DNA of 48,998 bases from Candidatus Spechtbacteria bacterium SB0662_bin_43 (GCA_009839835.1 VXOY01000005.1:1-48998), one strand, 5' to 3'. Shown: positions 16,487 through 32,810, counted from the first letter of the stretch. Notes: generated from the letters alone by a model not told the origin. Translations and numbers: made by a program.

Positions 16487-17742
16487 TACGAGATTCTATC
16501 AAACCCTGTATATGGCTGGAGCACAGATGGTATGCGAACAGATCCATCGTGCTGTTGGTAGTTTTCCAAGAGTGCTATGAGTATTCTACCGATTGCAAGT
16601 GCTGTACCATTCGCAATATGGACAAAGTGGTTAGCCTTGTCTTTACGGTATCGTATATTCAATCTGCGAGCCTGAAAATCACCTGTATCGCTCGTTGAGT
16701 GAGTCTCGCGGTACGTCTCCTGGCTTGGTATCCACGACTCAATATCGTACTGACGTTTGGCAACAAACCCCATATCTCCTGTACAGATAGAGACGACTCG
16801 ATACGGAATTTCCAGTCTTTGCATCAATCGCTCTTGGGTTTCAAGCATCAGTAGGTGTTCTTTTTCTGCTTGTTCTACTGTTGCAAATGACACCATTTCA
16901 ATCTTATCAAATTGATGAACTCGCAGAATACCTTTTGTGTCTTTTCCATACGACCCTGCTTCTCTACGAAACGCAGACGAAAAACCAATAAATCTTCGTG
17001 GCAAGGTTTCGCACTCTATGACTTCGTTGCAAAACATCGGAACAATAGAGTGCTCTGCTGTTGCAACCAAGTATAAGTCATCCTTTTCTATATAGTACGC
17101 TTCATCTGAGTCTTTTTCTAAGTACCCTAATCCTTGCATTGCGTTCTTGTTGATCAAAACAGGAGGCACGATAGGCACAAAGCGCTCTTTCATTACCTCG
17201 TCAAATACAAATCGTACAAGGGCAAACTCAAGCAAGGCTGCTTGGTTTTTGATGTACCCAAATCGAGTTCCAGACACCTTTGCAGCTCGGTCTATGTCAA
17301 TCAAATCGTATGCTTTTGCTATCTCAAGGTAGTCTTTTGGTTTGAATGAAAACGATGGCTTCTCGCCAAAAACACGCAGAACAACGTTGTCATCTTCGTC
17401 TGTTCCGCGAGGCACATCATTGCTCGGTATGTTTGGTATCTTGTGCAGCGCTGTATCAAGTGCCTCCTTTTTTGTACGGAGTATAGACTCATTGTGTTGT
17501 ACTTTTCGTTTTATTTCTTCAGCTTTTTTCAAAAGACCACTCCTTGCTTCGCTGTTCTTTTGTGCTGCAATCTGTTCTGTTATTGTATTGCGAGAAGCAC
17601 GCAAATCTTCTGTTGTGCGCAGCACCTGCTTGTACTCATCATCCAATGCTATGATGTCGTCAATGCGAATATCGCTCTTTTTCGCACGGACACCTTCTTG
17701 GACTTCCTTTCTATTATTGCGAATATAGTCAGGTGAAATCAT
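16486..17742 (-). CDS. serS: serine--tRNA ligase
   Basis: N-terminal coiled-coil arm plus class II motifs (FRREAGS..DT.G..RVHQF.K.E, GTA.A..R). Confidence 0.95.
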   Translation of the reverse strand: MISPDYIRNNRKEVQEGVRAKKSDIRIDDIIALDDEYKQVLRTTEDLRASRNTITEQIAAQKNSEARSGLLKKAEEIKRKVQHNESILRTKKEALDTALHKIPNIPSNDVPRGTDEDDNVVLRVFGEKPSFSFKPKDYLEIAKAYDLIDIDRAAKVSGTRFGYIKNQAALLEFALVRFVFDEVMKERFVPIVPPVLINKNAMQGLGYLEKDSDEAYYIEKDDLYLVATAEHSIVPMFCNEVIECETLPRRFIGFSSAFRREAGSYGKDTKGILRVHQFDKIEMVSFATVEQAEKEHLLMLETQERLMQRLEIPYRVVSICTGDMGFVAKRQYDIESWIPSQETYRETHSTSDTGDFQARRLNIRYRKDKANHFVHIANGTALAIGRILIALLENYQQHDGSVRIPSVLQPYTGFDRIS

Positions 17743-18440
17743 ATATGTATTATATCACTTATTCCTTCTTCTTGTTGGAACGCGCATACTGCGCAGCGCG
17801 AATTGGGTCGTGGAGGAGCGTCCTCGTTCATAACACCTATTGCTCTTTGTATAGTACGCATTGCTTGCGCGCTTGAAAGAGTAATGCGTTGAACATCAAT
17901 ACCGAATTGCAGTACCCCTTGTTTGACGACCTTTTGTGGATAGTAAAATACCAAATATCCGTATGGCGCAATCTTGTAGTCGTTTTTCTCTATTAGCAAT
18001 GAGTACACATCTAATTGTAGCTGATAATGGTAGTTTCCTTTCTCTTGTTTTTCGTATCCTCGTGTTTTGTAGTCAATAGGTGCGTAGCAATTATCAATGA
18101 TCATACAGTCGTCCAGCGCTCCGATAACAAGGACATCAGTGTCGTCAATACGGTACGAAAGCCCTTTTCGCCAATTTCTCCACTTATCTATTGTGTTTTG
18201 TTCTACTAACGCGCCATCGGACACGGTTTTCATCTCAGGAGGTAAAGTATTTTGTGCGCGATACGTATCAAAGTACTGCTTCACAACAGAATCCATACCT
18301 GACGCAATAGAAGGAAATGGATACCTGTTTGCTTTGTGTTTTGTGTTGGCGTGAAACCAAAAACATCGTGGACAGTCTTGAAAAATGCGCAGTGTTGAAG
18401 GAGAAAGATATACGTTCTTGCCACCAGTCATATACCTCAC
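17739..18440 (-). CDS. PD-(D/E)XK nuclease family protein (Cas4/RecB-like with terminal Cys pairs)
   Basis: LSPSTL..FQDCPRCFW, GALDD, IDYKT and YQLQLDVY, with C-terminal CAVC. Its stop overlaps the serS start (ATGA). Confidence 0.55.
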   Translation of the reverse strand: MRYMTGGKNVYLSPSTLRIFQDCPRCFWFHANTKHKANRYPFPSIASGMDSVVKQYFDTYRAQNTLPPEMKTVSDGALVEQNTIDKWRNWRKGLSYRIDDTDVLVIGALDDCMIIDNCYAPIDYKTRGYEKQEKGNYHYQLQLDVYSLLIEKNDYKIAPYGYLVFYYPQKVVKQGVLQFGIDVQRITLSSAQAMRTIQRAIGVMNEDAPPRPNSRCAVCAFQQEEGISDIIHI

Positions 18441-18534
18441 TATAGCGCATTTTTTGTTGTATCAAAAGGATACCGTGATACATTAGATGTGTACCATTGC
18501 AACCAATACTTTATATTCACAGATTGATATTTTA

Positions 18535-18565
18535 AACAAAAAAAGAGGTCGCGCAAGCGACCTCT
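18535..18565 (-). terminator. intrinsic terminator
   Basis: Minus-strand stem AGAGGUCGC/GCGACCUCU with a 4-nt loop, followed by UUUUUUUGUUU. Confidence 0.7.
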
Positions 18566-18575
18566 TGACTGTGCG

Positions 18576-18854
18576 TCATCCCGCAGACACCAACAGTATG
18601 CCTACGAGAAGTGCTATGTTGGCAATAAAGGCACCAAGCGCTTCCTCAATGCCAAACCCAAAGGTTGCACCAGCAGTGACGGGTATGAGGAGCAGCAGGA
18701 GCACGAAGATGCGAGGCAAGGTGATGATGGTTTCTGGTCCGTACTCCTCCGTGTCTTCTCTTCTCCGTCTCTCCATGTGCGCCTGTGCCGTAAGGGGACC
18801 CATTCCAGACGTCTCCTTGAGGTGTCTCTTTCTGCGGCTCTCCGTTTTAGACAT
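18576..18854 (-). CDS. small membrane protein (92 aa), hypothetical
   Basis: AAAGGA lies 6 nt upstream of the ATG at 18854. Charged N-terminus, two hydrophobic segments, and a terminator immediately downstream. Confidence 0.45.
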   Translation of the reverse strand: MSKTESRRKRHLKETSGMGPLTAQAHMERRRREDTEEYGPETIITLPRIFVLLLLLIPVTAGATFGFGIEEALGAFIANIALLVGILLVSAG

Positions 18855-18979
18855 ATCACATCCTTTCTGTTCTGTTGACACATGTGACTACTTTTTTATT
18901 GCCATAATATATTATAATAGTCAAGAGCATTCATCTCTAAAAAACAAAAAACACTCAAAGAGTGCTTCTTGCTACTTCG

Positions 18980-19199
18980 TGTCTCAAAATGAGAGCAGAA
19001 GTACAGTGCCTACCTCTTATATAAATATACAATGCAAGCAGAGTATACTATATAAAAAGATAGACACAGCACTTCTGCCATCAATCACAGAATACAAGAT
19101 CCTATGAGAGACGACAGAAGCAAAGTGTACTCACTTTCGCAAGTACAATATCAGTATAATCTATGCTTGTTTTTTTGTCAAGGGGGTTTGTGTGGATAA
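18980..19199. repeat. inverted repeat copy A (220 bp, 100% identical to the reverse complement of 27673-27892)
   Basis: Compared block by block in 10-nt units with no mismatch. Confidence 0.95.
18981..19146 (-). ncRNA. structured RNA unit inside repeat copy A (identical to 27726-27891)
   Basis: On the minus strand, TTGACA (19176-19181), 17-nt spacer and TATACT (19153-19158). Long hairpin and a U-tract. Contains a 23-codon mini-ORF at 19010-19081. Confidence 0.4.
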
Positions 19200-19201
19200 C
19201 G

Positions 19202-20950
19202 CTATTTGTCATACGGTATTGAGTAGTGATGGAAAAGGAACTTGGCAATATCGTGAAATACTGGAGATAACGAATCAGTAGCAAATCTAATAGTTTGTGG
19301 TCGATCTACCCTCAGGATGCCAACAAACTTTGGATTGTACGCAGGTGCATACCCTACAAAGGAGTGTATTACCCTATCCTGATAATATCCTTGACCATCT
19401 TCTTGTGCTACCTGTGCTGTACCTGTTTTCGCAGCAATACTGTAGCCAGGGACTGCCAGCTTTGCGCCATACCCATTCTCTGCTGTACTAACAAGCATAT
19501 CGGTTATCCGTGTTGCAGTAAACGAAGAAATTGGTCGTGCAACTTCTTCAGGCTCTGTTATGGTCTCATTGCCTTCGTGGTCAACGATTCGTTCCACAAT
19601 ATATGGTTGCATCATAATGCCGTCGTTTGCCAACGCAGAAATTGCTGTAAGCATACGGAGTGGTGTTATAGATATACCTTGTCCATACGTTGCAGTTGCA
19701 AAGTTTACATCAGGTGCTCCTTTGCGAACACCGTGAAGGCTACCTACTGTCTCTCCTGCCAACGTGATGCCTGTTGCTTTCTTGAGTTGGAACTTTTCTA
19801 AATAGTCAGAAAAGGTTTCCTGCCCCATTTGTTCCATTGCAAAAACAGTACCTGTATTCAAAGACTCTTCCAATACCTGTGTCATTGTTTGTTTTCCTCT
19901 TCCAACTCCTCCAACATTGCTCAATCTTCGACCACTTACTACTACAAACCCATTGTCTTCGTACGTGGTAATCGGTGTTATTGCTCCTGAATCTAAAGCA
20001 GATGCAATGGTGATTGGTTTAAAAATAGACCCTGGTTCAAACGCACCACTTATTGCGTTATTTTTGAAAACAGCGTATTTGTCCTCCTGGTCATCGGAGA
20101 TATACTTGCTATAGTTATTTGGGTCAAACGATGGACAGTGAGCCATTGCAAGGATTGCACCTGTTTGTGGGTCCATAAATATCGCACTCCCAGACTCTGC
20201 GTGCGTCCTCTCAACGACATCACACAATATTTCTTCAACTTGGTACTGTACTGTGTTATCAATTGTCAGTTCGATATCTGCACCAGGAAAACCTACTTTT
20301 GTTTTATCAATACCCAAAAATGGCAGCGCTTCTGCAAAGCCCGATGTTCCAACCAACGTGCTGTTAAAGTACTGCTCTATACCGTATCGCCCTATTATTC
20401 CTTGATCTTTTGAGTCTCCCACATACCCAATAACTTGTGCTGCACGACTATTTCGTGGATAGAAACGAGTATCTTCATATCTGATATATACACCTTGCAA
20501 TTCTGCGTCTTGTATTTTTTGAACCTCTTCTTGTGAGAGACGATCTGCAATACGGACATAGCGCGAATCGCGGTCGCTCAATTGAGTAAGGAGAGTGTCC
20601 CATTCTCCGTCGTCAATCTGCACTAACTGTGCAAGAGCCCCTAATATAATAGTTGGGTTTTCAATTTGTGCTGGCACTGCGAACACGTGAGGCGTCTCTT
20701 TGTTGGTCGCAACAAGCACCCGTGCTTTCCCTGCTCTGTCTTGCATATAAATCTGACCTCGTGGTTGCTCTACCTCATTGATTTCGCTTCGTTGCCCCAA
20801 TTCTTTTGCTGCATTCAGACTTCCATTTTGAATCTGAAACTTGTAGAGCTGAAAGAGGACAGTAGACGAAAGTACAAGAAAAAAAGCACCAAGCAGTATC
20901 AAGCGTGGCACCCTTGTAAAGAGACTGAGGAGAGCTGAAAGAGGTATCAT
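19202..20950 (-). CDS. ftsI: penicillin-binding protein 2 / FtsI-type peptidoglycan D,D-transpeptidase
   Basis: N-terminal TM segment and PBP dimer domain, plus SIFKPIT (SxxK), SLN (SxN) and KTGTA. Located in the mraZ-rsmH-ftsL context. Confidence 0.9.
   Translation of the reverse strand: MIPLSALLSLFTRVPRLILLGAFFLVLSSTVLFQLYKFQIQNGSLNAAKELGQRSEINEVEQPRGQIYMQDRAGKARVLVATNKETPHVFAVPAQIENPTIILGALAQLVQIDDGEWDTLLTQLSDRDSRYVRIADRLSQEEVQKIQDAELQGVYIRYEDTRFYPRNSRAAQVIGYVGDSKDQGIIGRYGIEQYFNSTLVGTSGFAEALPFLGIDKTKVGFPGADIELTIDNTVQYQVEEILCDVVERTHAESGSAIFMDPQTGAILAMAHCPSFDPNNYSKYISDDQEDKYAVFKNNAISGAFEPGSIFKPITIASALDSGAITPITTYEDNGFVVVSGRRLSNVGGVGRGKQTMTQVLEESLNTGTVFAMEQMGQETFSDYLEKFQLKKATGITLAGETVGSLHGVRKGAPDVNFATATYGQGISITPLRMLTAISALANDGIMMQPYIVERIVDHEGNETITEPEEVARPISSFTATRITDMLVSTAENGYGAKLAVPGYSIAAKTGTAQVAQEDGQGYYQDRVIHSFVGYAPAYNPKFVGILRVDRPQTIRFATDSLSPVFHDIAKFLFHHYSIPYDK
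19212..19234. repeat. 23-nt direct repeat copy 1 (last codons of ftsI)
   Basis: tacggtattgagtagtgatggaa is identical to 27595-27617 in the same orientation. Confidence 0.95.
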
Positions 20951-21030
20951 AGCTACACTATCTTACGAATGAGAACAAGGAATAAACAAAATAAAAGTTG
21001 CTCATTGCTCTGTTTCTCATCTTTGTTTTG

Positions 21031-21435
21031 TTAGTTGTTTTCAACAAACGTAAATGGTGATTGCACTGACCGCTCAACGTAATGAACAGAACTGATAGCA
21101 GCGTACGATGACGATAGGCTTGCTTCCAATAGGTGCTCTAAAGAACTTTCCTGACTCATTGTTATTTGTAGATTCCTTGATTCTGTTTGCGCTGCTGTTA
21201 TTTGGTTGTGGAGGTCTTTTATAGCGTAGTCGCGTTCCATTAGAGCGGTTGCTGTAATAATATATCCTACCACAACAATAACAAAAATACTTATCAAGAT
21301 AAAAAGAAATGGGTATGAGCGTCGAAATTGCAACCCATGTGCGAGAAAGTGACCTACTCCTGATACGTGAAAAGAAGGTACAGCAAACGAGCTTCCTGCT
21401 AACGAGAGTAACGGTTTGATAGTATGAAAAGACAT
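21031..21435 (-). CDS. FtsL-like membrane protein (TM + coiled coil)
   Basis: Position between rsmH and ftsI. One TM segment followed by a heptad-like segment (IKDLHNQITAAQTESRNLQ). Confidence 0.5.
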   Translation of the reverse strand: MSFHTIKPLLSLAGSSFAVPSFHVSGVGHFLAHGLQFRRSYPFLFILISIFVIVVVGYIITATALMERDYAIKDLHNQITAAQTESRNLQITMSQESSLEHLLEASLSSSYAAISSVHYVERSVQSPFTFVENN

Positions 21436-21458
21436 AGGTATAAATTAAATATTGGTAA

Positions 21459-22352
21459 TTAGATAGTATGAAATGCTCGTAATTTCGCGCTCCTGCTTCG
21501 TCTGTTGCGCTGAATTTCTGTGAAGTGCGGAACAACGACTTTTTTGGTGAGAATGTTTCCAATCCCCTTCTTTTTCCAGTCCTGAAATACAGTTTTTACA
21601 ACACGATCTTCTAAGGAATGAAAACTAATAACAACAATTCGTCCGTCTTTTCCTATGTGAGATTGCGCTGCGTACAATCCTTGTTTGAGTGCCCCTATTT
21701 CGTCATTTACTGCGATTCGCAACGCTTGGAATATACGAGTTGCCGGGTGCATTTTCCGCTTTGTATGACGAGGAATAACAGATGTGATGATATCTACAAG
21801 TTGTTGTGTTGTGCGTATCTTTTCCTGCCGCCTCTTTTGAAAAATTGCTTTTGCAATGTGCTGTGCTTTTGGTTCTTCACCGTACTCTTGAAAAATGTAC
21901 TCCAGAGTATCACGCGGTGCACTATTGATGATGTTAGCTGCTGTTTGTGCCGAAGTATCTGTTGCGTTATAGCGCATATCCAAGGGTTCGTCTCGTAAAA
22001 ATGAAAATCCTCGTCCGCTATGCTCAACGTGCCAAGAAGAAAATCCAAGATCAAACAACACACCACTCACGTTCTCAAACTGCTCATCTTGGCACATATC
22101 GTCCAAATCACGATAATTGCCATTCACTACTACTACGTTTTGATAGAGCCTCTGTTGTATCACTCGCTTGCAAAGAAATGATGCCATTACGTCGTCTCGC
22201 TCTATGGCTAAAATGTTGCCTTTGCTTCCAATAGCGCGAGCTATAGCAAATGTGTGTCCACCATATCCTGCTGTTGCATCTATAACCGTATCCCCTTGTT
22301 GTAATGCGAGATAGTGCAATACCTCATCTATCATTACAGGAGTATGAATCAT
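21459..22352 (-). CDS. rsmH: 16S rRNA (cytosine1402-N4)-methyltransferase
   Basis: HTPVM..EVL, DATAGYGGH, DLGFSS.H and FHSLEDR. Confidence 0.9.
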   Translation of the reverse strand: MIHTPVMIDEVLHYLALQQGDTVIDATAGYGGHTFAIARAIGSKGNILAIERDDVMASFLCKRVIQQRLYQNVVVVNGNYRDLDDMCQDEQFENVSGVLFDLGFSSWHVEHSGRGFSFLRDEPLDMRYNATDTSAQTAANIINSAPRDTLEYIFQEYGEEPKAQHIAKAIFQKRRQEKIRTTQQLVDIITSVIPRHTKRKMHPATRIFQALRIAVNDEIGALKQGLYAAQSHIGKDGRIVVISFHSLEDRVVKTVFQDWKKKGIGNILTKKVVVPHFTEIQRNRRSRSAKLRAFHTI

Positions 22353-22362
22353 AACCGCATTG

Positions 22363-22794
22363 CTAAACGCCTATATCGCCCAAGCGCTCTGCCATATTAC
22401 CTGCATCTTTTTCACTCTTCGTTTTGTATTCTTCCCATGTGCTGCTATCCCAAATCTCCATACGGTTGAATAATCCAGCAACAACCACCTGCTTTTCTAA
22501 CTCTGCGTATTCCTTCAAGTAGTCAGGAATAATGATTCGCCCCAATTTATCGACCGAGACTTCCATCGCACCTGCCAACATTAACCTACTGAATCCCCGT
22601 GCATCGCTTTGTCCTAATGGCAGCGCACCGAGCTTTTCTGCTAATAACTGCCATTCTCTGTGCGGAAAAACAAATAAACAATGATCCAGACCTCTGGTTA
22701 CAACAACAATGTTCCCTGCCTCAGTACGAAACTTTGAAGGAATCGCCAACCTTTTCTTTTGGTCTATAGAGTGAGTGTATTCTCCAAGAAACAT
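22363..22794 (-). CDS. mraZ: transcriptional regulator MraZ
   Basis: MFLGEY.HSIDQKKRL.IPSKFR plus a second SpoVT/AbrB-like DKLGRIIIP repeat. Confidence 0.9.
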   Translation of the reverse strand: MFLGEYTHSIDQKKRLAIPSKFRTEAGNIVVVTRGLDHCLFVFPHREWQLLAEKLGALPLGQSDARGFSRLMLAGAMEVSVDKLGRIIIPDYLKEYAELEKQVVVAGLFNRMEIWDSSTWEEYKTKSEKDAGNMAERLGDIGV

Positions 22795-22845
22795 TGCAGT
22801 ACGAAAGATAAATTACGAAAAGGTGTACAGCGGGAAGAATTAACA

Positions 22846-23030
22846 TTATCCACAATTCTGCTTACTTATCCCCACTTTTATCCACTGCTACCCTTTTACT
22901 CCCCTATTGTACCTTACTCTACCTTTGTACTCAATAGATTTTATCCACATAAAAAGTATGGAAGTACCTGTGTTTTGTCATATTTATACACAATAATTTT
23001 ATTATCCACAGATTTTTTATGTATTCCACA
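22846..23030 (+). promoter_or_regulatory. cluster of DnaA-box-like TTATCCACA motifs (3 perfect, 2 with one mismatch, 1 with two mismatches, all same orientation)
   Basis: Perfect copies at 22846-54, 22941-49 and 23002-10. TTATCCCCA at 22866-74, TTATCCACT at 22878-86 and TATTCCACA at 23022-30. AT-rich flanks, in a non-coding 400-nt gap upstream of mraZ. Confidence 0.5.
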
Positions 23031-23128
23031 TCGCCCCACTCTTCAGTATAAAACACCTATTCTCTCTTCATCTTTTCCAATTCTCAATTCTGTTCATAGA
23101 GAAAAATAAGGATTGTAAATACAAATAT

Positions 23129-23162
23129 CAAAAAAACAACAGAGATTCTGTTGTTTTTTTTT
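23129..23162. terminator. bidirectional terminator-like hairpin
   Basis: Stem ACAACAG/CTGTTGT with an A-run before it and a T-run after it. Confidence 0.55.
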
Positions 23163-23192
23163 GAACCTGCTGAGCGAGGTTTCGTTACTACT

Positions 23193-23756
23193 CTACTGTT
23201 GTGGGTTTTGAGTAGGAGGCTTTTGTTCTTGTGGGGGCATTGGTCCTGTGGTCTGTTGTGGTTGTGCTCCTGGATTCTGGGGAGGAGAAGGATTCTGTGC
23301 TGGTGATTGCGTTATATCAATAGAGGGAGGTGCAGGAGAAGCAGTAGCAGGTTCGCCTGTTGGTTGTGATGTAGGTGGTACATTCTCACCACTCATAGGC
23401 TGTGGCTGTGACACTGATGGCTGCATTGGCTCTGCGGCACCGTTGTTCATTGGTGTTGGTGGTGTCTTCATTGTTTGCTGTACTGGTGACTGAATAGAAT
23501 CAGAAGACGGTGAAGGTTGAGATGCGGGCTGCTGTGGAGGTTGCATTACTGGTGTTGAATCTCCTCCGTCAAAAGAAGATGGTGAATACATGCCACCCTG
23601 CTCTCCTGTTGAGTCAGGCGATGGAGAGCCATTTGGTTGCGAGTCTTGAGATAATATCTCGTTCGATGTTGTATGTTTTCTTATGAAAAAAAAGTAGTAT
23701 CCTGCTATTGCCAACACAACTATCACTATAAGTACAGGAAGTAAAAAACCGCTCAT
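23193..23756 (-). CDS. membrane-anchored Pro/Gln/Ser-rich low-complexity protein
   Basis: N-terminal TM segment (LLPVLIVIVVLAIAGYYFFFI) followed by about 150 aa of P/Q/S-rich sequence. Confidence 0.5.
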   Translation of the reverse strand: MSGFLLPVLIVIVVLAIAGYYFFFIRKHTTSNEILSQDSQPNGSPSPDSTGEQGGMYSPSSFDGGDSTPVMQPPQQPASQPSPSSDSIQSPVQQTMKTPPTPMNNGAAEPMQPSVSQPQPMSGENVPPTSQPTGEPATASPAPPSIDITQSPAQNPSPPQNPGAQPQQTTGPMPPQEQKPPTQNPQQ

Positions 23757-23853
23757 AATAATGTATAATTAAGAAATAATAAGATACACTTTTAGTATAC
23801 CATAATACAAAGAATAGTACTGTAATACGAAAGTAACCAAACAACAACCATTT

Positions 23854-25710
23854 ATGTACCTCTACTCTGTCATTCCGCTCGTATCTCTCCCCCGTTCATA
23901 TCCGCACAGTGTTACCTATTTCAGCGGAGAGTTGTTGCGCGCAGGGTGTCTTGTACGAGTGCCATTACAAAACACAACTGTCTGTGCCATCGTTATACAG
24001 CGCCATAGTGCGGACGAACAAAAACAAGCAATCCGCAAATCAGAGTACTCTCTCAAAAAGATACATACCGTCCTTTCAAAACAGCCTGTTGTGTCAAAAA
24101 ATACTCTTTTGCTCGCAGTATATCTTTCACACTACTATTACGAATCAACGGGTCTTACTCTCAGATATATACTGCCTGCTTCCTTTTCAAAACCAACCCG
24201 TGGCTTTGAAAAGGCGATCGAATCATATTCATCACAAAGAGCACCACAACCGCAACCCGACACATACCACCAGTCTCAGATCGTTATGAGCCAAGACTAC
24301 AGCACGCCGCAGGAACACGCTATTGTCCTCTATCCTACTCTGTCACACATACCAAAGAATACCTCCTTCCCTATCCAGCACTTCTCGCACCGTACAAATG
24401 AATACACCCAATGGATCCCTCCTATTCCCCCCGCCTCTTTTGCAGGAACAAAGCGGCTTGCATTTTTGCCGACCACTCCTACAACACCCTTTGTTCTCCA
24501 CAATGAAAATAACGCACTCTATGTATCACACAGGAAGCGACCGCATATTGACGTTCGTGTTGTTGCGCGGCTTCGTGCGTCTGTAGAAAAAAAACCTATT
24601 ATTGTTCAAGAAACCGTCCCGTCATTAGAGATGTATCACTTTTTCAAACAAAACAAATTCACTATCACAGATACGTCGCACAAGATGGCTCCACTCACTG
24701 TTGTAGATGCTCGTCACGCATCGCCTATGTCGTATATAAACGAGCACATACAAAAAAATATTTGCGCACTCAAGCAAGACGAACAAGCGCTAATCTTCAC
24801 GCACAGACGAGGCATTGCATCTGTGTTGCTCTGTCGTCAGTGCGGATTTATTTTCAAGTGCAGTGATTGTGACACACCATACATTTTACATTCAACCTTT
24901 TTACTGTGTCACAGGTGCTCTCAACAACGGACGATTCCTACCTATTGTGTTGTCTGCAACAGTACACACTTCAAAGATCTTGGTGCAGGAACAGCTCGTA
25001 TTGAAAAACTCATCCGCGAAGCAGCACCTCATTTATCAGTACAGCGGATAGACACAGACAACACCCGAACACAAAAACAACGGGATGCAATTTTTTCTCA
25101 GTTCGCAAATAAAGAGTACAACGTTTTGGTTGGTACAACCTCGCTCATTCATCATCACACACTTCTTCCAGACGTACACCTTACCGCAACACTTAATATA
25201 GATGATATGATGAGCATCCCCTCGTACCAAGCGTCTGAACAAACGTTTCTTACTATATGGCGTATGCGTGAAAAAGCCCGTGGAAAATCGTTCCTCCAAA
25301 CACACCTTCCTCATATTCCTCTTGTGAAACACGCACAAGAAAACAGCTCTCTGCCATTTTTAGAGTACCAGCTTGCGTTTCGTAAAAAAATAAATGCTCC
25401 TCCTTTTTCACAAGAAACGCACCTGGTGTACGAACATAAAGAGTATGCAACTGCACGGAGTAACGCTACACGACTCGCAAACATATTACAACAAGCAGTA
25501 GCGCGGCTACCACACAAAGAAGATGTCACCATCATAGGACCTGCCCCTGGGTACCATCAAAAGCGCAAAGGATATTTTCGGTGGTACATCATTATACAGT
25601 GCAAAAAAATCAAAACACCTCCTTTTATTCGCGCACAAGAACGCAATAAACTACTTGCGTTAGTGCCGAAAAAGTGGGATATTATTATTGATCCACAGAA
25701 CGCATCATAA
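23854..25710 (+). CDS. priA: primosomal protein N' (PriA) homologue with degenerate helicase motifs
   Basis: PriA-type N-terminus, LIFTHRRG (motif IV), a Cys-rich zinc region (CRQCG...CSDCD...CHRCS...CVVCNS), G.GT..IE and VLVGTTS. Walker A and DExH are not recognisable. Confidence 0.75.
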   Translation: MYLYSVIPLVSLPRSYPHSVTYFSGELLRAGCLVRVPLQNTTVCAIVIQRHSADEQKQAIRKSEYSLKKIHTVLSKQPVVSKNTLLLAVYLSHYYYESTGLTLRYILPASFSKPTRGFEKAIESYSSQRAPQPQPDTYHQSQIVMSQDYSTPQEHAIVLYPTLSHIPKNTSFPIQHFSHRTNEYTQWIPPIPPASFAGTKRLAFLPTTPTTPFVLHNENNALYVSHRKRPHIDVRVVARLRASVEKKPIIVQETVPSLEMYHFFKQNKFTITDTSHKMAPLTVVDARHASPMSYINEHIQKNICALKQDEQALIFTHRRGIASVLLCRQCGFIFKCSDCDTPYILHSTFLLCHRCSQQRTIPTYCVVCNSTHFKDLGAGTARIEKLIREAAPHLSVQRIDTDNTRTQKQRDAIFSQFANKEYNVLVGTTSLIHHHTLLPDVHLTATLNIDDMMSIPSYQASEQTFLTIWRMREKARGKSFLQTHLPHIPLVKHAQENSSLPFLEYQLAFRKKINAPPFSQETHLVYEHKEYATARSNATRLANILQQAVARLPHKEDVTIIGPAPGYHQKRKGYFRWYIIIQCKKIKTPPFIRAQERNKLLALVPKKWDIIIDPQNAS

Positions 25711-25722
25711 CCACTGTGCCTT

Positions 25723-26229
25723 ATGGTACAACCTGTTATACAACGAGGAGCAACCATACTCCGTACCCCAACAAAACCAGTCACAGATTTCTCAGACCCA
25801 TCTTTTGGGGGTCTTATTCAAGATATGCAAGACACTCTTATAGAGCAAGACGGTGTAGGGCTGGCTGCTGTACAAATCAATGTTGCGAAAAGAATTTTTA
25901 TCATACCCCCTGAATATGCCCCGAGCGTACGTACCCGTTCATTACCTTTATCATTGCTTCGTCCTCTTAGACCAACAATTTTTGTGAATCCAGTCATAAC
26001 CTCTCTATCAAAAGAACTCGTTCTCTTGGACGAAGGGTGCCTTAGTGTTCGCAATAAATTTTACCCAACACCCCGTGCAAAAAAGGTAACGCTTCAAGCA
26101 CAAAACGAAAGAGGAAAACATTTTACTGTTGAAGCAGAAGATCTACTGGCGCGGATTTTTCAACACGAAACAGACCATCTTGACGGCACCTTGTTTATAG
26201 ATCGTATCCATGAGAACCTCTCAAAATAA
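25723..26229 (+). CDS. def: peptide deformylase
   Basis: GVGLAAVQIN, EGCLSV and HETDHLDG. Confidence 0.9.
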   Translation: MVQPVIQRGATILRTPTKPVTDFSDPSFGGLIQDMQDTLIEQDGVGLAAVQINVAKRIFIIPPEYAPSVRTRSLPLSLLRPLRPTIFVNPVITSLSKELVLLDEGCLSVRNKFYPTPRAKKVTLQAQNERGKHFTVEAEDLLARIFQHETDHLDGTLFIDRIHENLSK

Positions 26230-27292
26230 CGGACAGAACCTCGCGTTTTGGGGCACAACACCGTTTGCCGCCAGCATCCTTTTGCACCTTCACGAAGCAT
26301 CTATCAACTTATATTCTTCGCCAGACGAAAAAGAAGGGCGACAAGAAAAAACACGCAGTAGTGCTACATTGCCTCCCCTCCCTCACGAAGACCAGCGAGA
26401 ACAGACAACATTATCCCCTCCCCCTCTGGTCGTTATCACAACGCCAGACAAGAAAGGAAATAGAGGTAAAAAAACACAGAGTGCTGTAGCGCAAACAGCG
26501 CGCCACCTATCGCTCTCCGTGCTTCAGCCCGAATCTCTTGATAATGTGTTCTTTGATTACTTCTCTCAAACAAGGTGCGCTCTTTCAATTGTTGTTGCGT
26601 ATGGGAAAATTCTGCCTGCGCGATTCATCAAACACCCTGCGTGCGGAACAATCAATATCCATACATCTTTATTGCCGCGTTACCGAGGAGCCTCGCCTGT
26701 ACAAGCAGCACTTCTGAACGGCGACACAGAAACAGGCATCACGCTTATGCGTATGGATGAAAAAATGGATCACGGACCTATCATCGCTCAAAAGCGACTC
26801 GCCCTTCTTCCAGACGACACACCTGAGAGTGTATTCCAACGTATGACTCCGCTTGCTATCTCTCTCCTTGAACACTATCTCCCCAAAATTCTTGCAGGCA
26901 CAGCACCCGAGAACCCACAAGACCACAGCAAAGCTTCGTACACAAAATTGCTCACTCGCACGAACGGATGCATTGATTGGACTATGCCTGCTCTCGCTAT
27001 AGAGCGAATGGTTCGCGCGTTCACCCCTTGGCCTGGTGCGTATTCTTTTTTAGAAAACAAACGAGTCAAGATTCTCAAATGTGGTGTAACAAAAGATTCT
27101 CACGCAGACTCCTCACCAGGTACACTGATTGAATACAAGCAACAAGGACAGAAACCAAATCTTGCTGTTGCAACAGGAGGCGGTATTCTTGTTCTCTATA
27201 CTATTCAACAAGAAGGCAAAGAGCCACAAGACGCACAGGTTGTGTACGCAACCCAACCCACGATTATTGGTCGCGTATTGCAATCACAGTAG
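26210..27292 (+). CDS. fmt: methionyl-tRNA formyltransferase (with ~45-aa N-terminal insertion)
   Basis: Follows def. INIHTSLLPRYRGASP.Q.A...GD.ETG.T.M.M....D.G and the C-terminal fmt domain. Confidence 0.85.
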   Translation: MRTSQNNGQNLAFWGTTPFAASILLHLHEASINLYSSPDEKEGRQEKTRSSATLPPLPHEDQREQTTLSPPPLVVITTPDKKGNRGKKTQSAVAQTARHLSLSVLQPESLDNVFFDYFSQTRCALSIVVAYGKILPARFIKHPACGTINIHTSLLPRYRGASPVQAALLNGDTETGITLMRMDEKMDHGPIIAQKRLALLPDDTPESVFQRMTPLAISLLEHYLPKILAGTAPENPQDHSKASYTKLLTRTNGCIDWTMPALAIERMVRAFTPWPGAYSFLENKRVKILKCGVTKDSHADSSPGTLIEYKQQGQKPNLAVATGGGILVLYTIQQEGKEPQDAQVVYATQPTIIGRVLQSQ

Positions 27293-27489
27293 ATGTTTTT
27301 GTCAGTCACCACATACAGCAGCACGACCACCCCTTTTCTCAATCCCCATACCATCGCAATTACCCTGTAACCCTATATCTACAATTCGTAAACACAATAA
27401 AGATAGTGCATTGTTGTTTGCGGAATACTTGCTCACACTATCTCTATACAATAAGCCGTCTTTTTGTTATACAGAAACTATACCCTTTT

Positions 27490-27562
27490 GCCCCCATCGT
27501 CTAGTGGCCCAGGACATCAGCTTCTCACGCTGGAAACAGGGGTTCGATTCCCCTTGGGGGTA
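27490..27562 (+). tRNA. tRNA-Glu (anticodon CTC)
   Basis: Cloverleaf read by hand: acceptor GCCCCCA/TGGGGGT, D-arm GTCT-AGTGGCCCA-GGAC (Glu-like), anticodon stem TCAGC/GCTGG with loop TTCTCAC, and T-arm AGGGG-TTCGATT-CCCCT. Confidence 0.9.
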
Positions 27563-27594
27563 CTACATTCGTGAATCAAAAACAAATCCTCTCT

Positions 27595-27617
27595 TACGGT
27601 ATTGAGTAGTGATGGAA
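27595..27617. repeat. 23-nt direct repeat copy 2 (duplicate of the ftsI 3' end, 32 nt past tRNA-Glu)
   Basis: Identical to 19212-19234. Confidence 0.95.
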
Positions 27618-27672
27618 TTTGAAATGCTCTATTTTACGCTTGTTCTTGCTGGTTTGTTCACTCACTTTGCTC

Positions 27673-27892
27673 TTATCCACACAAACCCCCTTGACAAAAA
27701 AACAAGCATAGATTATACTGATATTGTACTTGCGAAAGTGAGTACACTTTGCTTCTGTCGTCTCTCATAGGATCTTGTATTCTGTGATTGATGGCAGAAG
27801 TGCTGTGTCTATCTTTTTATATAGTATACTCTGCTTGCATTGTATATTTATATAAGAGGTAGGCACTGTACTTCTGCTCTCATTTTGAGACA
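27673..27892. repeat. inverted repeat copy B (220 bp)
   Basis: Exact reverse complement of 18980-19199. Confidence 0.95.
27726..27891 (+). ncRNA. structured RNA unit inside repeat copy B
   Basis: TTATCCACA (27673-81), 9 nt, TTGACA (27691-96), 17-nt spacer, TATACT (27714-19). An 85-nt hairpin has the outer stem GCAGAAGUGCUGUG/CACUGUACUUCUGC (27793-27877), followed by UCUCAUUUUG. Mini-ORF at 27791-27862. Confidence 0.4.
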
Positions 27893-27964
27893 TATATAAG
27901 GCAATCTACTGCTATAAAGCAAAAATCAAGTAATAGTTCATTATAATTATAAAGCCCGAAATGC

Positions 27965-27978
27965 ATATATATATATAT
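27965..27978. repeat. (AT)7 dinucleotide tract
   Basis: Counted directly. It begins 1 nt after ATG 27961-63 and ends at the first base of the long ORF's TTG. Confidence 0.95.
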
Positions 27979-29549
27979 TGGGGTCACATACAAAAAATAA
28001 GCCCTTGATATTGTATGTGTTGTCAGTGTTATTTGTGGTGCTCTTGATAGTAGCACTGTTTTTTATTATATTGCAGCAACAAAAAATAGTAGCAAATACA
28101 GATACGTTGCCAACTATTGGCTTTGATCATAATGCAGTTACGATTAGTGAAGGTGGTAATATGGCGATAATAGTTATATCACCTAAGAATGTTACTAATT
28201 CTGGTCCTTATTTTGATTGTAGTCTACCACGTGTAGATTATGGTCGCGGGCTACAATGTGCTCTTGTTCCAGGATCTCCCAGCAGTATTCCCCCGAACGT
28301 TTCTGATCTTAAAATCACAATGAACGGTACGGCAACCCAAGCAGACTATTTTACAAAATTAAATGCTTCAAGTGGTACAATACACTTTGCAGTATGGGCA
28401 CAGGCTGATAACAAAATTGAGGGCGACGAAACTTTCACTGTTAAAATATTGCCTAATGCAACAAAATATAAAATTGCCGAGCAAAACACTCTAACGGTGA
28501 CCATAAAAGACACGACTAAACCACCACTCAGGGCAAAGGTTAAGGTTGAAGATGCTACACAAGGAAGTGATATTACAATAACAGTAGAATTGGATAGACC
28601 TGTTGTAGGAATAGATCCCACATACTATCTTACGACAATAGCAAACTGTGATGGAACTAACTGGGCTCCCCCCGAAGCTACTGCTGCTAAATTCAACCTT
28701 AATGCAAGTGCAAGGTGTGGTAGTAATAATCAAGCAGTTATAGATAATGATATGGTGAAACCATCAAGCAACATAGCCTTCAAATACATAGCAATCCCCG
28801 TTGGTACAACTACCGGCTCGGTAACGTGGTCTACGATAAGCGATAGTGATACCAGAGACGAGACACTTTTGTTCAAGGTTGCTCCTTCCCGTGGATATTA
28901 TTCTGGTTGGCTGGATTCCAGCACCCCTCCTACAGCAGGTAGAGAAGATGGACACAGTTTTTGGAGAGCACGAATTCTGGCGCATGATAGCCTCATCGAT
29001 TCCAATATCTATAATCCTTATCCTCGTAAAATTACCGGAATAATTGATGATGAAAAAACCCACGATTCTATTACAGTATCGTGGAACAAGGATTCACATG
29101 CAGACAAGTACAAATTACAATATTGGGTGAAAACGCAAAAAGATACTACTCTAACAAGCCACGATATAAAACAAAACAAATCGGTATACAAAATTACAGA
29201 CCTCAACCCTGATACTGAGTACGTCATAACGGTGACGCCATATGCAGATGGTAAATTCTACACTGAGTTTGTCAGCGATAGTCTTGTAGTGCGTACACTA
29301 TCTACGTCGCCATCTTTTAGGAGGGCAATGATTTCTCAACAACAAGAACCTCAGCAACAGCAGCAAGAAGAACCAATTTCTATTCCCCTATCAGCAGATC
29401 ATCCATTAGTCAAATATGCTATTCTTATTGAAAAAATTGAAGTATATCTCAATAGTCAAGATTCCAATATCGATAGCGATCAATATAAACAAAGATGGTC
29501 ACGAGTCTTGAAAAATCTCCAAGCATTTCTGAGTAATGTTTTATCTTGA
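27978..29549 (+). CDS. membrane-anchored surface protein with Calx-beta-like and fibronectin type III domains
   Basis: Signal-anchor. NGTATQADYF...SGTIHF...EGDETFTVKIL is a Calx-beta-like signature. DSITVSWN...YKLQYW...YKITDLNPDTEYVITVTPY is FN3-like. The frame has no ATG start; only TTG/GTG starts exist (see findings). Confidence 0.6.
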   Translation: MGSHTKNKPLILYVLSVLFVVLLIVALFFIILQQQKIVANTDTLPTIGFDHNAVTISEGGNMAIIVISPKNVTNSGPYFDCSLPRVDYGRGLQCALVPGSPSSIPPNVSDLKITMNGTATQADYFTKLNASSGTIHFAVWAQADNKIEGDETFTVKILPNATKYKIAEQNTLTVTIKDTTKPPLRAKVKVEDATQGSDITITVELDRPVVGIDPTYYLTTIANCDGTNWAPPEATAAKFNLNASARCGSNNQAVIDNDMVKPSSNIAFKYIAIPVGTTTGSVTWSTISDSDTRDETLLFKVAPSRGYYSGWLDSSTPPTAGREDGHSFWRARILAHDSLIDSNIYNPYPRKITGIIDDEKTHDSITVSWNKDSHADKYKLQYWVKTQKDTTLTSHDIKQNKSVYKITDLNPDTEYVITVTPYADGKFYTEFVSDSLVVRTLSTSPSFRRAMISQQQEPQQQQQEEPISIPLSADHPLVKYAILIEKIEVYLNSQDSNIDSDQYKQRWSRVLKNLQAFLSNVLS

Positions 29550-29568
29550 TAATTTGTAGTCAACTCTT

Positions 29569-29614
29569 TATACAAAAGAGATACCACGACATATCGTGGT
29601 ATCTCTTTTGTATA
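29569..29614 (+). terminator. 21-bp perfect hairpin after the surface-protein gene
   Basis: Stem tatacaaaagagataccacga/tcgtggtatctcttttgtata with loop cata. There is no U-tract. Confidence 0.45.
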
Positions 29615-29714
29615 AGCACAACATATTGATTACAACACTACCCACCTTGACAGAATAATGTTTTTATACTATAAAATAAGGGTGTCAAAAAAACCTGAAA
29701 GGAGATATGGCGCA

Positions 29715-30035
29715 ATGAATTTTCCACGAACAGGGACTCGTCGCCATTTCAACGGAACAGTCAAACAGGAAATTCACCGTCGCCCTGATGGGACAGTGGA
29801 AAAGAAAATTCTCTTCCGTCCTGATGGAAACAAGGAACGAGAGGTTCTCTACTACTGCGACGGGGTGACGCGTTTCCGAGAGATAGAACTTCTCTACAAC
29901 TCCAGCAACACGCTGGAACGAGAAATCTGCCGTCGTCCTAACAAAATGGTAGAATGGGAGACCATCCATCACCCTGATGGAACAACCGAGAAAATCAGTG
30001 TGTGTCCTGTCAACACTCTTGCGGGGAGAGGATAA
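29715..30035 (+). CDS. MORN-variant/YwqK-like repeat protein (106 aa)
   Basis: AGGAG lies 11 nt upstream of the ATG at 29715. About four repeats of the type (R/H)RPDGT.E.. ...Y..G. A TTGACA-17-TATAAA promoter lies upstream. Confidence 0.5.
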   Translation: MNFPRTGTRRHFNGTVKQEIHRRPDGTVEKKILFRPDGNKEREVLYYCDGVTRFREIELLYNSSNTLEREICRRPNKMVEWETIHHPDGTTEKISVCPVNTLAGRG

Positions 30036-30038
30036 ACC

Positions 30039-30073
30039 CCCGCACTTATTTTTATAATAAAAATAAGTGCGGG
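30039..30073. terminator. 15-bp hairpin between convergent genes
   Basis: Stem cccgcacttattttt/aaaaataagtgcggg. Confidence 0.5.
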
Positions 30074-30116
30074 AAACTCACCATCTGTACTAAAAGACTT
30101 TATATAATATAGTATC

Positions 30117-30368
30117 TCAGCAAAGAGCACAGGAGTGATTTTGAAATGCTTCCCCTACATACTCGTGCGATAAAACAAACGAATCAAAGTGTGAAGAAGT
30201 GTCTCCTTCCACAATACGATGGACTGTATCAGGGTTATTTTCTGCAAAGGTAAACGCAGAAAAACCACAGAGTAAGGCAAATAATAGGAGAAAAACAACG
30301 TAGTACACTGTTCCCCAGACCGTATCTAATATCTGCCCTTCCCACCCTATTTTAATATCTACCTGCAT
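30117..30368 (-). CDS. small single-pass membrane protein (83 aa), hypothetical
   Basis: ORF with a central TM segment (VYYVVFLLLFALLCGFSAF). It is divergent from the ABC exporter genes. Confidence 0.4.
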   Translation of the reverse strand: MQVDIKIGWEGQILDTVWGTVYYVVFLLLFALLCGFSAFTFAENNPDTVHRIVEGDTSSHFDSFVLSHEYVGEAFQNHSCALC

Positions 30369-30515
30369 AATTTTTCGTTATTCACATCGTACTCGCGAGT
30401 ATAGCGATATACAATCATATTTATTTTCATACTTCTTTCTTTTTCGCCACTATCATACAACATAAAACCTCAAAACGCAATACTGTTGTACTCTGTAGCG
30501 CATTATATTATACTA

Positions 30516-31199
30516 ATGAATATGAATACACAAATACAACTCAAAGATCTTACAAAAACCTACCAAGATGGTACGCAATCATTTACTGCACTCCACGACA
30601 TCAACCTTTCTATCAAGGCGGGAGAACGGGTTGCAATTATTGGAAAATCAGGCAGTGGAAAATCGACGCTTATGCATGTTATGAGCCTGTTAGACTCACC
30701 TACTGCAGGCGACGTTTTGATAGAAGGTAAATCTGTATCTCGTATAAATGAGTATCAAAAAAATAAGTTGCGCAATAAAGCATTCGGCTTCATATTTCAA
30801 CAGTTCTTTCTTAATCCACAGCAGAATGTGTTGCACAACGTTGCACTCCCACTAAAAATTGACGGAGTTCCATCAGCTGAACGAAACGAAAAGGCAAAAA
30901 GTCTCCTCAAAAACGTTGGTTTGGAAGACAAAATGAATGAAAAAGCAGTAAACCTTTCAGGAGGACAAAAACAACGCGTTGCGATAGCACGAGCGCTGGT
31001 GAATGACCCCCTTGTTATTTTTGCAGACGAGCCAACAGGCAACCTGGACACAGAAACAGGTAAACAAGTTATAGATCTTCTCCTTCAGTACAACGAAGAA
31101 AAAAATATTACGCTTGTCGTTGTGACACACGATGACGATATTGCAGAAATATGTAAAAAGCAAATCCACCTATCAGATGGAAAAATAACCAAGAAATAA
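30516..31199 (+). CDS. ABC transporter ATP-binding protein (MacB/LolD/FtsE-like)
   Basis: [35 protein letters not shown] and VVTHD. The start was set at the ATG at 30516. Confidence 0.9.
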
Positions 31200-31211
31200 C
31201 TACTACGATAT

Positions 31212-32537: not shown

Positions 32538-32541
32538 TACG

Positions 32542-32793: not shown

Positions 32794-32810
32794 GAACTTG
32801 ACTTTGTTTG

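What the first reader, a model, noticed from the sequence alone, without database searches (positions are those of the whole stretch)
18980..27892. Perfect 220-bp inverted repeats bracket 8.47 kb of core division/translation genes
18980-19199 is the exact reverse complement of 27673-27892. I compared them in 10-nt blocks and found 0 mismatches, and the identity stops abruptly at both edges. The 8,473-bp interval carries ftsI, ftsL-like, rsmH, mraZ, the DnaA-box cluster, priA, def, fmt and tRNA-Glu. No recombinase, transposase or phage gene is associated. Identical inverted repeats of this length are efficient substrates for homologous-recombination-driven inversion. The segment could therefore exist in two orientations in the population, which would swap leading/lagging orientation and the promoter context of the dcw genes. 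Alternatively it reflects a very recent duplication or gene conversion of a small RNA gene, or an assembly join.
Basis: partly seen in the sequence, partly recalled or inferred. Interest (0 to 1): 0.75.

Follow-up and report, generated by a model that had tools for sequence, protein, structure and literature searches.

The report
Twin inverted small-RNA genes flank dcw–priA block
The perfect 220-bp inverted repeat is real: it is two copies of a small, strongly folded RNA gene with its own promoter in an uncultured Patescibacteria (CPR) bacterium, the copies appear to be kept identical by gene conversion, and the 8.5-kb block between them has the same orientation in both strains that could be checked, so flipping is not supported.

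Summary
18980-19199 is the exact reverse complement of 27673-27892, with abrupt edges, and the genes in between are as listed.

Each arm, read outward, is a complete transcription unit: a DnaA box (TTATCCACA), 9 nt, a near-consensus sigma-70 promoter, then a ~160-nt very strongly folded RNA (z = -8.75) ending in a long hairpin and a U-run. The RNA matches no Rfam family and has no homologue outside this lineage.

The window is a join of three short-read scaffolds that break exactly at the arms. The join is still sound: in a ~98%-identical sister strain from another sample, two contigs read straight through each arm and give the same orientation. The sister strain's two copies share two differences from the window's two copies, which indicates concerted evolution by gene conversion.

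Relatives at ~52-54% FtsI identity have ftsI followed directly by tRNA-Glu. The closest one has a single homologous DnaA-box promoter at that position, so the left copy looks ancestral and the right copy derived.

No recombinase is nearby. Inversion by homologous recombination is possible in principle but I found no evidence for it. It would swap replication orientation of the two operons, but not the dcw promoter, which is internal. Interest is modest.

The parts
18980..19199 (-). Left arm: a complete small-RNA gene transcribed leftwards. It starts 2 nt after the ftsI stop codon.
   Evidence: read through by sister-strain contig L081
27673..27892 (+). Right arm: an identical copy transcribed rightwards, 109 nt after tRNA-Glu and 125 nt before the FN3-domain gene.
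   Evidence: read through by sister-strain contig L088
27673..27681 (+). Perfect DnaA box TTATCCACA at the inner edge of the unit, 9 nt upstream of the -35 (mirror copy at 19191-19199 on the - strand).
   Evidence: the same box-N9-TTGACA arrangement occurs at the syntenic place in relative L082
27691..27719 (+). Sigma-70-type promoter TTGACA-17-TATACT, 11 of 12 consensus positions (mirror copy at 19181-19153 on the - strand).
27726..27892 (+). Predicted ~160-167-nt RNA: 5' hairpin 27726-27745, 14-nt single-stranded linker, long near-perfect hairpin 27789-27882, U-run 27883-27886, and a closing helix GUCUC/GAGAC that ends at the arm edge (mirror copy 19146-18980 on the - strand).
   Evidence: MFE -68.2 kcal/mol, z = -8.75, 0 of 200 shuffles fold as well; no Rfam family; the covariance model finds only the four known copies
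18937..18969 (-). Canonical intrinsic terminator (CACTC-TTTG-GAGTG plus T-run) just outside the left arm. It is conserved in the sister strain and has no counterpart after the right arm.
19200..27672 (.). The 8,473-bp interval. It holds two divergent operons (mraZ-rsmH-ftsL-ftsI leftwards; priA-def-fmt-tRNA-Glu rightwards) with their internal promoter region. It is identical to a stand-alone scaffold in the same-sample assembly.
22846..23010 (+). Cluster of six DnaA boxes (three perfect) upstream of mraZ, conserved in relatives L082 and L083. It is not an origin by GC skew or gene orientation.
27595..27632 (-). Relic of the ftsI 3' end (IEHFKFHHYSIP*) lying tail-to-tail with tRNA-Glu. Its last 23 nt (27595-27617) are identical to 19212-19234 inside ftsI, forming a direct repeat.
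   Evidence: present in sister strain L088
27490..27563 (+). tRNA-Glu(CTC). In relatives this gene lies directly downstream of ftsI on the same strand.

Best explanation
Each arm is a complete, autonomous gene for a small, highly structured RNA. It consists of a DnaA box, a strong sigma-70 promoter, a ~160-nt transcript and a long terminal hairpin with a U-run. The host is a Patescibacteria (CPR) bacterium near Candidatus Spechtbacterales.

The copy downstream of ftsI is in the ancestral position. The copy downstream of tRNA-Glu is a derived, inverted duplicate that arose during rearrangements separating ftsI from tRNA-Glu. The two copies are kept identical by homologous gene conversion between them.

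The interval has the same orientation in the two strains I could check. Crossing-over between the arms could invert it without breaking any gene or separating either operon from its promoter, but nothing shows that this happens at an appreciable rate.

Shown: the repeat, the unit's anatomy, the read-through contigs, the shared substitutions, and the synteny in relatives. Inferred: that the RNA is expressed, that DnaA controls its promoter, that gene conversion is the mechanism, and which copy is ancestral. The RNA's function is unknown. My guess is a regulatory RNA whose expression is tied to DnaA status, alongside the DnaA-box-rich dcw promoter.
For: Anatomy:
- DnaA box, then 9 nt, then TTGACA-17-TATACT.
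- The transcript fold has z = -8.75.
- The structured domain and U-run end at the arm edge, so the repeat boundaries coincide with the boundaries of a transcription unit.

Reality and orientation:
- The same-sample assembly graph forces an inverted-repeat topology, because both ends of the 8,473-bp scaffold attach to the same end of the repeat.
- Sister-strain contigs L081 (ftsI-repeat-nuclease-serS) and L088 (fmt-tRNA-Glu-repeat-FN3-ABC) read through each arm in the window's orientation.

Concerted evolution:
- Both sister-strain copies carry C4 instead of C5 at 27686-27690 and T instead of A at 27882. Both window copies carry the other state. Flanking DNA differs by 1.5-2.4%.

Ancestry:
- L082 and L083 have ftsI -> tRNA-Glu(CTC).
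- L082 has a single TTATCCACA-N9-TTGACA-N17-TAGTAT module driving a short structured RNA downstream of ftsI.
- serS lies downstream of ftsI in L083, as in the window.

No recombinase or transposase was found.
Against: - There are no expression data, so the RNA, its ends and DnaA control are predictions.
- The RNA body has no detectable homologue outside the four copies, so there is no covariation support for the structure.
- Concerted evolution rests on two shared differences. One is a homopolymer length in low-coverage (3-4x) contigs that carry other indel errors.
- Identity of the arms in the window's own record could be partly by construction, because the repeat was collapsed in assembly.
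- The 23-nt direct-repeat relic of ftsI is not explained by a simple inverted duplication.
- The right copy lacks a canonical terminator and could act as a promoter and leader for the FN3 gene.
Confidence: 0.6

Rival explanations
1. Invertible segment. RecA-type crossing-over between the 220-bp arms flips the 8.5-kb block often enough that both orientations coexist in the population. This changes whether the dcw and priA operons are co-directional or head-on with replication.
For: - The arms are perfect, 220 bp long and inverted. From general knowledge, that is well above the minimal length for RecA-dependent recombination.
- The gene conversion suggested implies the arms do interact.
- Neither operon would be broken or separated from its promoter, so a flip should be tolerated.
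- The short-read assembler did not scaffold across either arm.
- There is no origin inside the interval, so orientation relative to the replication fork would change.
Against: - Both read-through contigs in the sister strain show the same orientation as the window.
- That orientation keeps ftsI on the serS side, the gene order also seen in relative L083.
- No contig with the alternative junction pairing was found.
- Assembly breaks at a 220-bp repeat are expected for any repeat longer than the k-mer and say nothing about heterogeneity.
- No invertase is present.
Confidence: 0.12
2. The unit encodes a small hydrophobic protein (a type I toxin-like mRNA) rather than a non-coding RNA. A 23-codon ORF (MAEVLCLSFYIVYSACIVYLYKR, 27791-27862) lies inside the long hairpin, which would keep it untranslated until the RNA is processed.
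For: - The ORF exists with an ATG at the base of the hairpin.
- The peptide is a single hydrophobic stretch with a basic C-terminus.
- This genome shows no Shine-Dalgarno motifs upstream of confident genes, so the lack of an SD is not an argument against translation.
- Multi-copy, highly structured mRNAs are typical of type I toxins (general knowledge).
Against: - U-rich hairpins readily give hydrophobic ORFs, and another frame gives one too.
- No antisense promoter is predicted inside the unit.
- The peptide has no NCBIfam match, and the RNA has no homologues that could test codon-level conservation.
- The hairpin followed by a U-run looks like the unit's terminator.
Confidence: 0.1
3. The arms are duplicated promoter and 5'-leader modules (cis-regulatory) that drive the genes outside the interval: the FN3-ABC-FtsX genes on the right, and the small-ORF/nuclease-serS genes on the left.
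For: - The right copy has no canonical terminator before the FN3 gene, 125 nt downstream.
- Both copies point outward into co-directional genes.
- In sister strain L081 the left copy is only ~150 nt from the nuclease-serS operon.
Against: - The left copy is followed at once by a strong intrinsic terminator that is conserved in the sister strain.
- The unit's own long hairpin plus U-run (U5 in the sister strain) also looks like a terminator.
- There is no riboswitch or T-box match.
- The downstream genes on the two sides are unrelated.
Confidence: 0.1
4. Assembly or curation artefact: the second copy, or the orientation of the interval, was created when scaffolds were joined.
For: - The window tiles exactly onto three same-sample scaffolds with breaks at 19199/19200, 27672/27673 and 27838.
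- 165 nt of the right arm is in no scaffold.
Against: - Independent contigs from another sample contain each arm with unique sequence on both sides, in the same arrangement.
- Logan contigs from the same run enter the repeat from three different unique flanks.
Confidence: 0.03

Closest known systems
Inverted duplicate genes homogenised by gene conversion (tufA/tufB in Salmonella and E. coli; recalled from the literature, not tested here)
   Same: Two inverted copies of one gene, several kb or more apart, stay near-identical within a genome while diverging between genomes. The same recombination can, rarely, invert the DNA between them.
   Different: The unit here is a 220-bp small-RNA gene rather than a 1.2-kb protein gene. 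The copies are only 8.5 kb apart. The evidence for conversion is two shared differences between two strains.
Homologous-recombination inversions between inverted rRNA operons or IS copies, and chloroplast inverted-repeat flip-flop (general knowledge; bacterial recombination background in PMC8262849 and PMC2483231, listed but not read)
   Same: Long identical inverted repeats without a dedicated invertase. An inversion keeps genes intact.
   Different: Those repeats are kilobases long, and both isomers have been observed. Here the arms are 220 bp and only one orientation has been seen.
Site-specific invertible switches (invertons: fim, hin, Bacteroides promoter flips)
   Same: A DNA segment bracketed by inverted repeats.
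   Different: Invertons have short repeats (about 10-50 bp), an adjacent invertase, and usually a promoter or partial gene inside. Here no recombinase is present, the arms are whole genes, and the interval is 8.5 kb of housekeeping operons.
DnaA-box-bearing promoters of the DnaA regulon (for example E. coli mioC and dnaA, B. subtilis sda; general knowledge)
   Same: A consensus DnaA box sits immediately upstream of a sigma-70 promoter. A second DnaA-box cluster lies at the dcw promoter in the same interval.
   Different: The product here is an unclassified small RNA. DnaA binding is untested, and the organism is an uncultured CPR bacterium.

Membership tests
Site-specific invertible element (inverton) | A serine or tyrosine invertase encoded next to the repeats | tested here: not met
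   Pfam, PHROGs and NCBIfam scans of all ORFs within ~5 kb of each arm found no recombinase.
Site-specific invertible element (inverton) | Both orientations present in sequence data | not testable with these tools
   No read-level access. The only contigs that span the arms (L081, L088) show one orientation.
Homologous-recombination inversion between repeated genes | Long, identical, inverted repeats | tested here: met
   220 nt, 100% identical, inverted.
Homologous-recombination inversion between repeated genes | Alternative orientation seen among strains or molecules | tested here: not met
   The window and the sister strain have the same junction pairings. A third population's contigs do not reach the arms.
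Concerted evolution of duplicate genes by gene conversion | Copies more alike within a genome than between genomes, with the same changes in both copies | tested here: met
   C5/C4 at 27686-27690 and A/T at 27882 differ between strains but are shared by both copies within each strain. This rests on two sites, one of which is a homopolymer.
Composite transposon / IS-flanked segment / MITE | Arms encode a transposase or have terminal inverted repeats with target-site duplications; many copies | tested here: not met
   The arms are 220 bp with no long ORF. There are only two copies in 49 kb, no terminal inverted repeats, and no phage, plasmid or viral-contig matches.
Known RNA families (Rfam 15: 6S, riboswitches, T-box, others) | Score at or above the family gathering threshold | tested here: not met
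   Only the tRNAs pass the threshold. The permissive scan gives only miRNA-hairpin noise far below threshold.
Type I toxin-antitoxin | A small hydrophobic ORF in a structured mRNA, plus an antisense or overlapping antitoxin RNA | tested here: inconclusive
   A 23-aa hydrophobic ORF is present. No antisense promoter is predicted, and there is no family match.
Replication origin flanked by repeats | GC-skew sign change and a switch in gene orientation at the DnaA-box cluster | tested here: not met
   Skew is negative from ~8 kb to 49 kb with no switch near 23 kb. Genes far left and far right are on the same strand. In L083 genes are co-directional across the homologous cluster.

The most novel reading that the evidence does not exclude
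The twin DnaA-box-driven RNA genes and the DnaA-box cluster at the dcw promoter form a replication-to-division control module specific to this CPR lineage. The identical arms also let the dcw/priA block flip by homologous recombination, producing subpopulations in which the essential division operon is head-on rather than co-directional with replication.
Probability: 0.1. Interest if true: 0.65.

Novelty: new member of a known kind. Interest (0 to 1): 0.3.

Why it matters
For genome curation, the case is reassuring. A scaffold join made at a collapsed 220-bp repeat in a CPR MAG is confirmed here by independent contigs from another sample.

Biologically, it adds three things:
- An unclassified, strongly structured small-RNA gene with a DnaA-box promoter, in a phylum where almost no regulatory RNAs are described.
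- A small example of concerted evolution of inverted duplicates.
- Synteny evidence that the ftsI-tRNA-Glu neighbourhood was rearranged around this gene.

It does not by itself show a new kind of genetic switch. The conserved DnaA-box cluster upstream of mraZ, together with the DnaA box on the RNA promoter, gives a testable hint that DnaA links replication status to division genes in these reduced genomes.

Tried and rejected
- Close relatives through FtsI. The reference-genome scan and metagenome scan gave only <=38% identity hits, which were useless for synteny. The large protein database was needed to reach relatives at 52-54% identity and the sister strain.
- Exact-protein look-ups with longest-ORF starts failed for three genes, probably because the called start codons differ.
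- The def look-up returned only same-sample contigs.
- The unit has no similarity to phages, plasmids or viral contigs.
- A permissive Rfam scan gave only noise.
- A covariance model of the RNA found no distant homologue in 398 kb of related and candidate loci.
- I tested whether TTATCCACA-N9-TTGACA is a general promoter architecture. In viral contigs the number of hits is roughly what I estimated for chance, and the 9-nt spacing is not preferred. I therefore rely only on the syntenic L082 match.
- A replication origin inside the interval is rejected on skew and gene orientation.
- A target search with the RNA's single-stranded linker found nothing convincing, and duplex energies with the 23-mer were unremarkable.
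- P0123 looked like a possible third-sample junction test but is an unrelated, mis-clustered fragment.
- I tried several single-event models for the ftsI relic: arm-to-arm inversion, inverted duplication, and staggered-break inversion. Each predicts the wrong orientation or position. Only tandem duplication plus deletion, or excision and reinsertion, fits, and that remains speculative.
- A literature search for the sample identifiers found nothing.


Full report
**1. The observation**

The window contains exactly one long inverted repeat: 18980-19199 and 27673-27892, 220 nt, 100% complementary, 8,473 nt apart. Aligning the arms with 60 nt of flank on each side shows identity dropping to background at both edges.

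- ftsI, a weak FtsL-like ORF, rsmH and mraZ on the - strand
- a cluster of six DnaA boxes at 22846-23010
- priA, def, fmt and tRNA-Glu(CTC) on the + strand

Pfam, PHROGs and NCBIfam scans of the surrounding ORFs found no recombinase or transposase. The nearest nuclease is a Cas4-like PD-(D/E)XK protein co-operonic with serS.

**2. What the repeat unit is**

Read outward from the interval (left copy on the - strand, right copy on the + strand), each arm has these parts:
- It begins with a perfect DnaA box, TTATCCACA.
- Exactly 9 nt later comes a sigma-70 promoter, TTGACA-17-TATACT, matching 11 of 12 consensus positions.
- The predicted transcript (27726-27892) opens with a 5'-terminal hairpin, followed by a 14-nt single-stranded linker.
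- It then forms a ~94-nt near-perfect hairpin followed by a U-run.
- A closing helix, GUCUC/GAGAC, ends one base before the arm's outer edge.

The minimum free energy is -68.2 kcal/mol against -37.3 for shuffles (z = -8.75). The repeat boundaries therefore coincide with the boundaries of a complete transcription unit.

No Rfam family matches at gathering or permissive thresholds. There is no similarity in phage, plasmid or viral collections. A covariance model of the RNA finds only the four copies described below.

The left copy starts 2 nt after the ftsI stop codon and is followed, outside the arm, by a canonical terminator. The right copy lies 109 nt after tRNA-Glu and 125 nt before an FN3-domain gene, with no canonical terminator in between.

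A 23-codon hydrophobic ORF sits inside the long hairpin. The genome shows no Shine-Dalgarno motifs upstream of confident genes, so translation cannot be judged from that. I treat the coding reading as a minor rival.

**3. Is it an assembly product?**

The organism is an uncultured Patescibacteria (CPR) bacterium. The nearest named relatives by FtsI are Candidatus Spechtbacterales, and the closest relatives reach 54% identity. The window is a whole 48,998-bp public contig.

Exact-protein look-ups recovered the short-read assembly of the same sample (ENA ERZ23491722, run SRR9841444). It tiles onto the window as follows:
- scaffold_2559 ends exactly at 19199.
- scaffold_6358 is exactly 19200-27672 (8,473 bp, 100% identical).
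- scaffold_2359 begins at 27838, which is a 55-nt k-mer overlap into the arm.
- Logan contigs from the same run stop 30 nt into the repeat from three different unique flanks.

The repeat was therefore a collapsed node in the assembly graph, and the window is a join made at that node. Part of the right arm (27673-27837) is in no scaffold. The graph forces an inverted-repeat topology, because both ends of the 8,473-bp piece attach to the same end of the repeat. It does not fix the orientation of the interval.

**4. Independent confirmation and orientation**

A different sample (ENA ERZ25069580) holds a sister strain that is ~98% identical.
- Contig ctg98673_4x_l (L081) runs rsmH-ftsL-ftsI, a full repeat copy, the terminator, then nuclease-serS.
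- Contig ctg100527_3x_l (L088) is colinear with window 26210-41166. It runs fmt, tRNA-Glu, the repeat, then FN3, ABC and FtsX.

Both contigs have unique sequence on each side of the repeat, and both pair the junctions as the window does. Their names and indel-rich differences suggest low-coverage long-read assembly; that is my inference.

The duplication is therefore real, and the orientation is the same in two strains. A third population (95.5% identical) shares the interior gene order, but its contigs do not reach the arms.

**5. Concerted evolution**

In a four-copy alignment, both sister-strain copies differ from both window copies in the same two ways:
- C4 instead of C5 at 27686-27690
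- T instead of A at 27882

The flanks differ by 1.5-2.4%. Copies that are identical within a genome, with differences shared between genomes, are the signature of gene conversion between the arms.

Three caveats apply. There are only two sites. One of them is a homopolymer in contigs that carry other singleton indels. The window's own identity may be partly by construction.

**6. History**

In the two closest relative lineages (L082, FtsI 54%; L083/L084, 52%), tRNA-Glu(CTC) lies 10-45 nt downstream of ftsI on the same strand. In L083, serS follows a few kb further on.

L082 also has, ~560 nt downstream of ftsI, a single TTATCCACA-N9-TTGACA-N17-TAGTAT module that drives an ~80-nt structured RNA with a terminator (z = -4.9). 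This 15-base pattern occurred nowhere else in the 87 loci held at that point.

I infer that the ftsI-proximal (left) copy is in the ancestral position and that the right copy is derived.

In the window, ftsI and tRNA-Glu now sit at opposite ends of the interval, each beside an arm. A decayed fragment of the ftsI 3' end (IEHFKFHHYSIP* against the real IAKFLFHHYSIPYDK*) lies tail-to-tail with tRNA-Glu at 27595-27632. Its last 23 nt are identical to 19212-19234, forming a direct repeat, and it is conserved in the sister strain.

This scar shows that rearrangement has occurred here. Its orientation is not what an arm-to-arm inversion or a simple inverted duplication predicts. Tandem duplication followed by deletions would fit, but that is speculative.

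**7. What an inversion would and would not do**

GC skew is negative from ~8 kb to the end of the window, with no sign change near the DnaA-box cluster. Genes far to the left and far to the right are on the same strand. In L083, genes are co-directional across the homologous DnaA-box cluster. So there is no origin inside the interval.

It would not change the promoter context of the dcw genes. The candidate mraZ promoters, the DnaA boxes and the terminator of the upstream ORF all lie inside the interval. No gene would be broken.

Recombination between 220-bp repeats is expected at a low rate in any RecA-proficient cell (general knowledge). Nothing here indicates more than that.

**8. Verdict**

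The best explanation is a pair of inverted, co-evolving copies of an unclassified small-RNA gene with a DnaA-box promoter. The copies mark an old rearrangement of the ftsI-tRNA-Glu neighbourhood in a CPR bacterium.

The invertible-segment reading is possible but has no support and is weakened by the sister strain. The assembly-artefact reading is rejected.

The closest known analogues are inverted duplicate genes homogenised by gene conversion (the tufA/tufB type) and inversions by homologous recombination between repeated genes. It is not an inverton, a transposon or a known RNA family. Interest is modest. The RNA itself, and the conserved DnaA-box cluster upstream of mraZ, are the parts most worth following up.

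Noticed in passing
window 19212-19234 and 27595-27617 (relic 27595-27632, - strand): A 23-nt exact direct repeat. One copy is the end of ftsI. The other is a decayed ftsI 3'-end fragment lying tail-to-tail with tRNA-Glu, and it is conserved in the sister strain. Its orientation does not fit a simple inversion or inverted duplication.
   Followed up: partly
window 22846-23010; L082 8097-8201; L083 8111-8214: A cluster of 3-6 DnaA boxes directly upstream of mraZ, oriented against it, is conserved in three lineages of this CPR clade. It is not an origin by skew or gene orientation, and it suggests DnaA control of the division operon.
   Followed up: partly
window 18513-18938: A ~425-nt cassette with its own promoter-like site and terminator, holding a 101-aa ORF (18576-18881, - strand), is absent from sister strain L081. 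This is an indel polymorphism right next to the left arm.
   Followed up: partly
window, upstream of 22 confident genes: No Shine-Dalgarno-like motif appears upstream of any start codon examined, so this genome seems not to use SD-led initiation.
   Followed up: no
L082 12298-12430: The nearest relative has a DnaA box-N9-TTGACA promoter driving an ~80-nt structured RNA (z = -4.9) with UUCG loops and a terminator. It sits divergent from a 126-aa gene and upstream of a 52-aa ORF.
   Followed up: partly
L083 11875-12100: A GC-rich ~220-nt region right after tRNA-Glu and its terminator folds moderately well (z = -2.3) and ends in a terminator. It has no Rfam match and may be another unclassified RNA.
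   Followed up: no
L102 910-933 and 7760-7783; L139 6397-6420 (IMGVR_UViG_3300014205_000110): One 42-kb viral-classified contig, from the same sample as relative L084, carries three copies of TTATCCACA-N9-TTGACA. This is far above chance for a single contig. It may be a CPR phage or a misclassified CPR contig.
   Followed up: no
window 32755-32796 and 29568-29615: Perfect palindromes of 42 nt and 48 nt sit at gene ends. The first lies between the convergent MjaI-like fragment and a 364-aa ORF; the second lies just after the FN3 gene. They are likely bidirectional or strong terminators.
   Followed up: no
window 17739-18440 (- strand): A Cas4-like PD-(D/E)XK nuclease overlaps the serS start by 4 nt. 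It has a strong match to a phage protein family of unknown function (phrog_31195, E = 9e-44) and is absent from the equivalent place in L083.
   Followed up: no
window 32542-32778 (+ strand): A 78-aa ORF matches only part of the MjaI restriction endonuclease family. It is probably a gene remnant and is present in the sister strain too.
   Followed up: no
window ~1-9000: GC skew is positive over the first ~8 kb and negative afterwards (cumulative maximum near 8 kb). This could be a local gene-orientation effect or a replication landmark.
   Followed up: no
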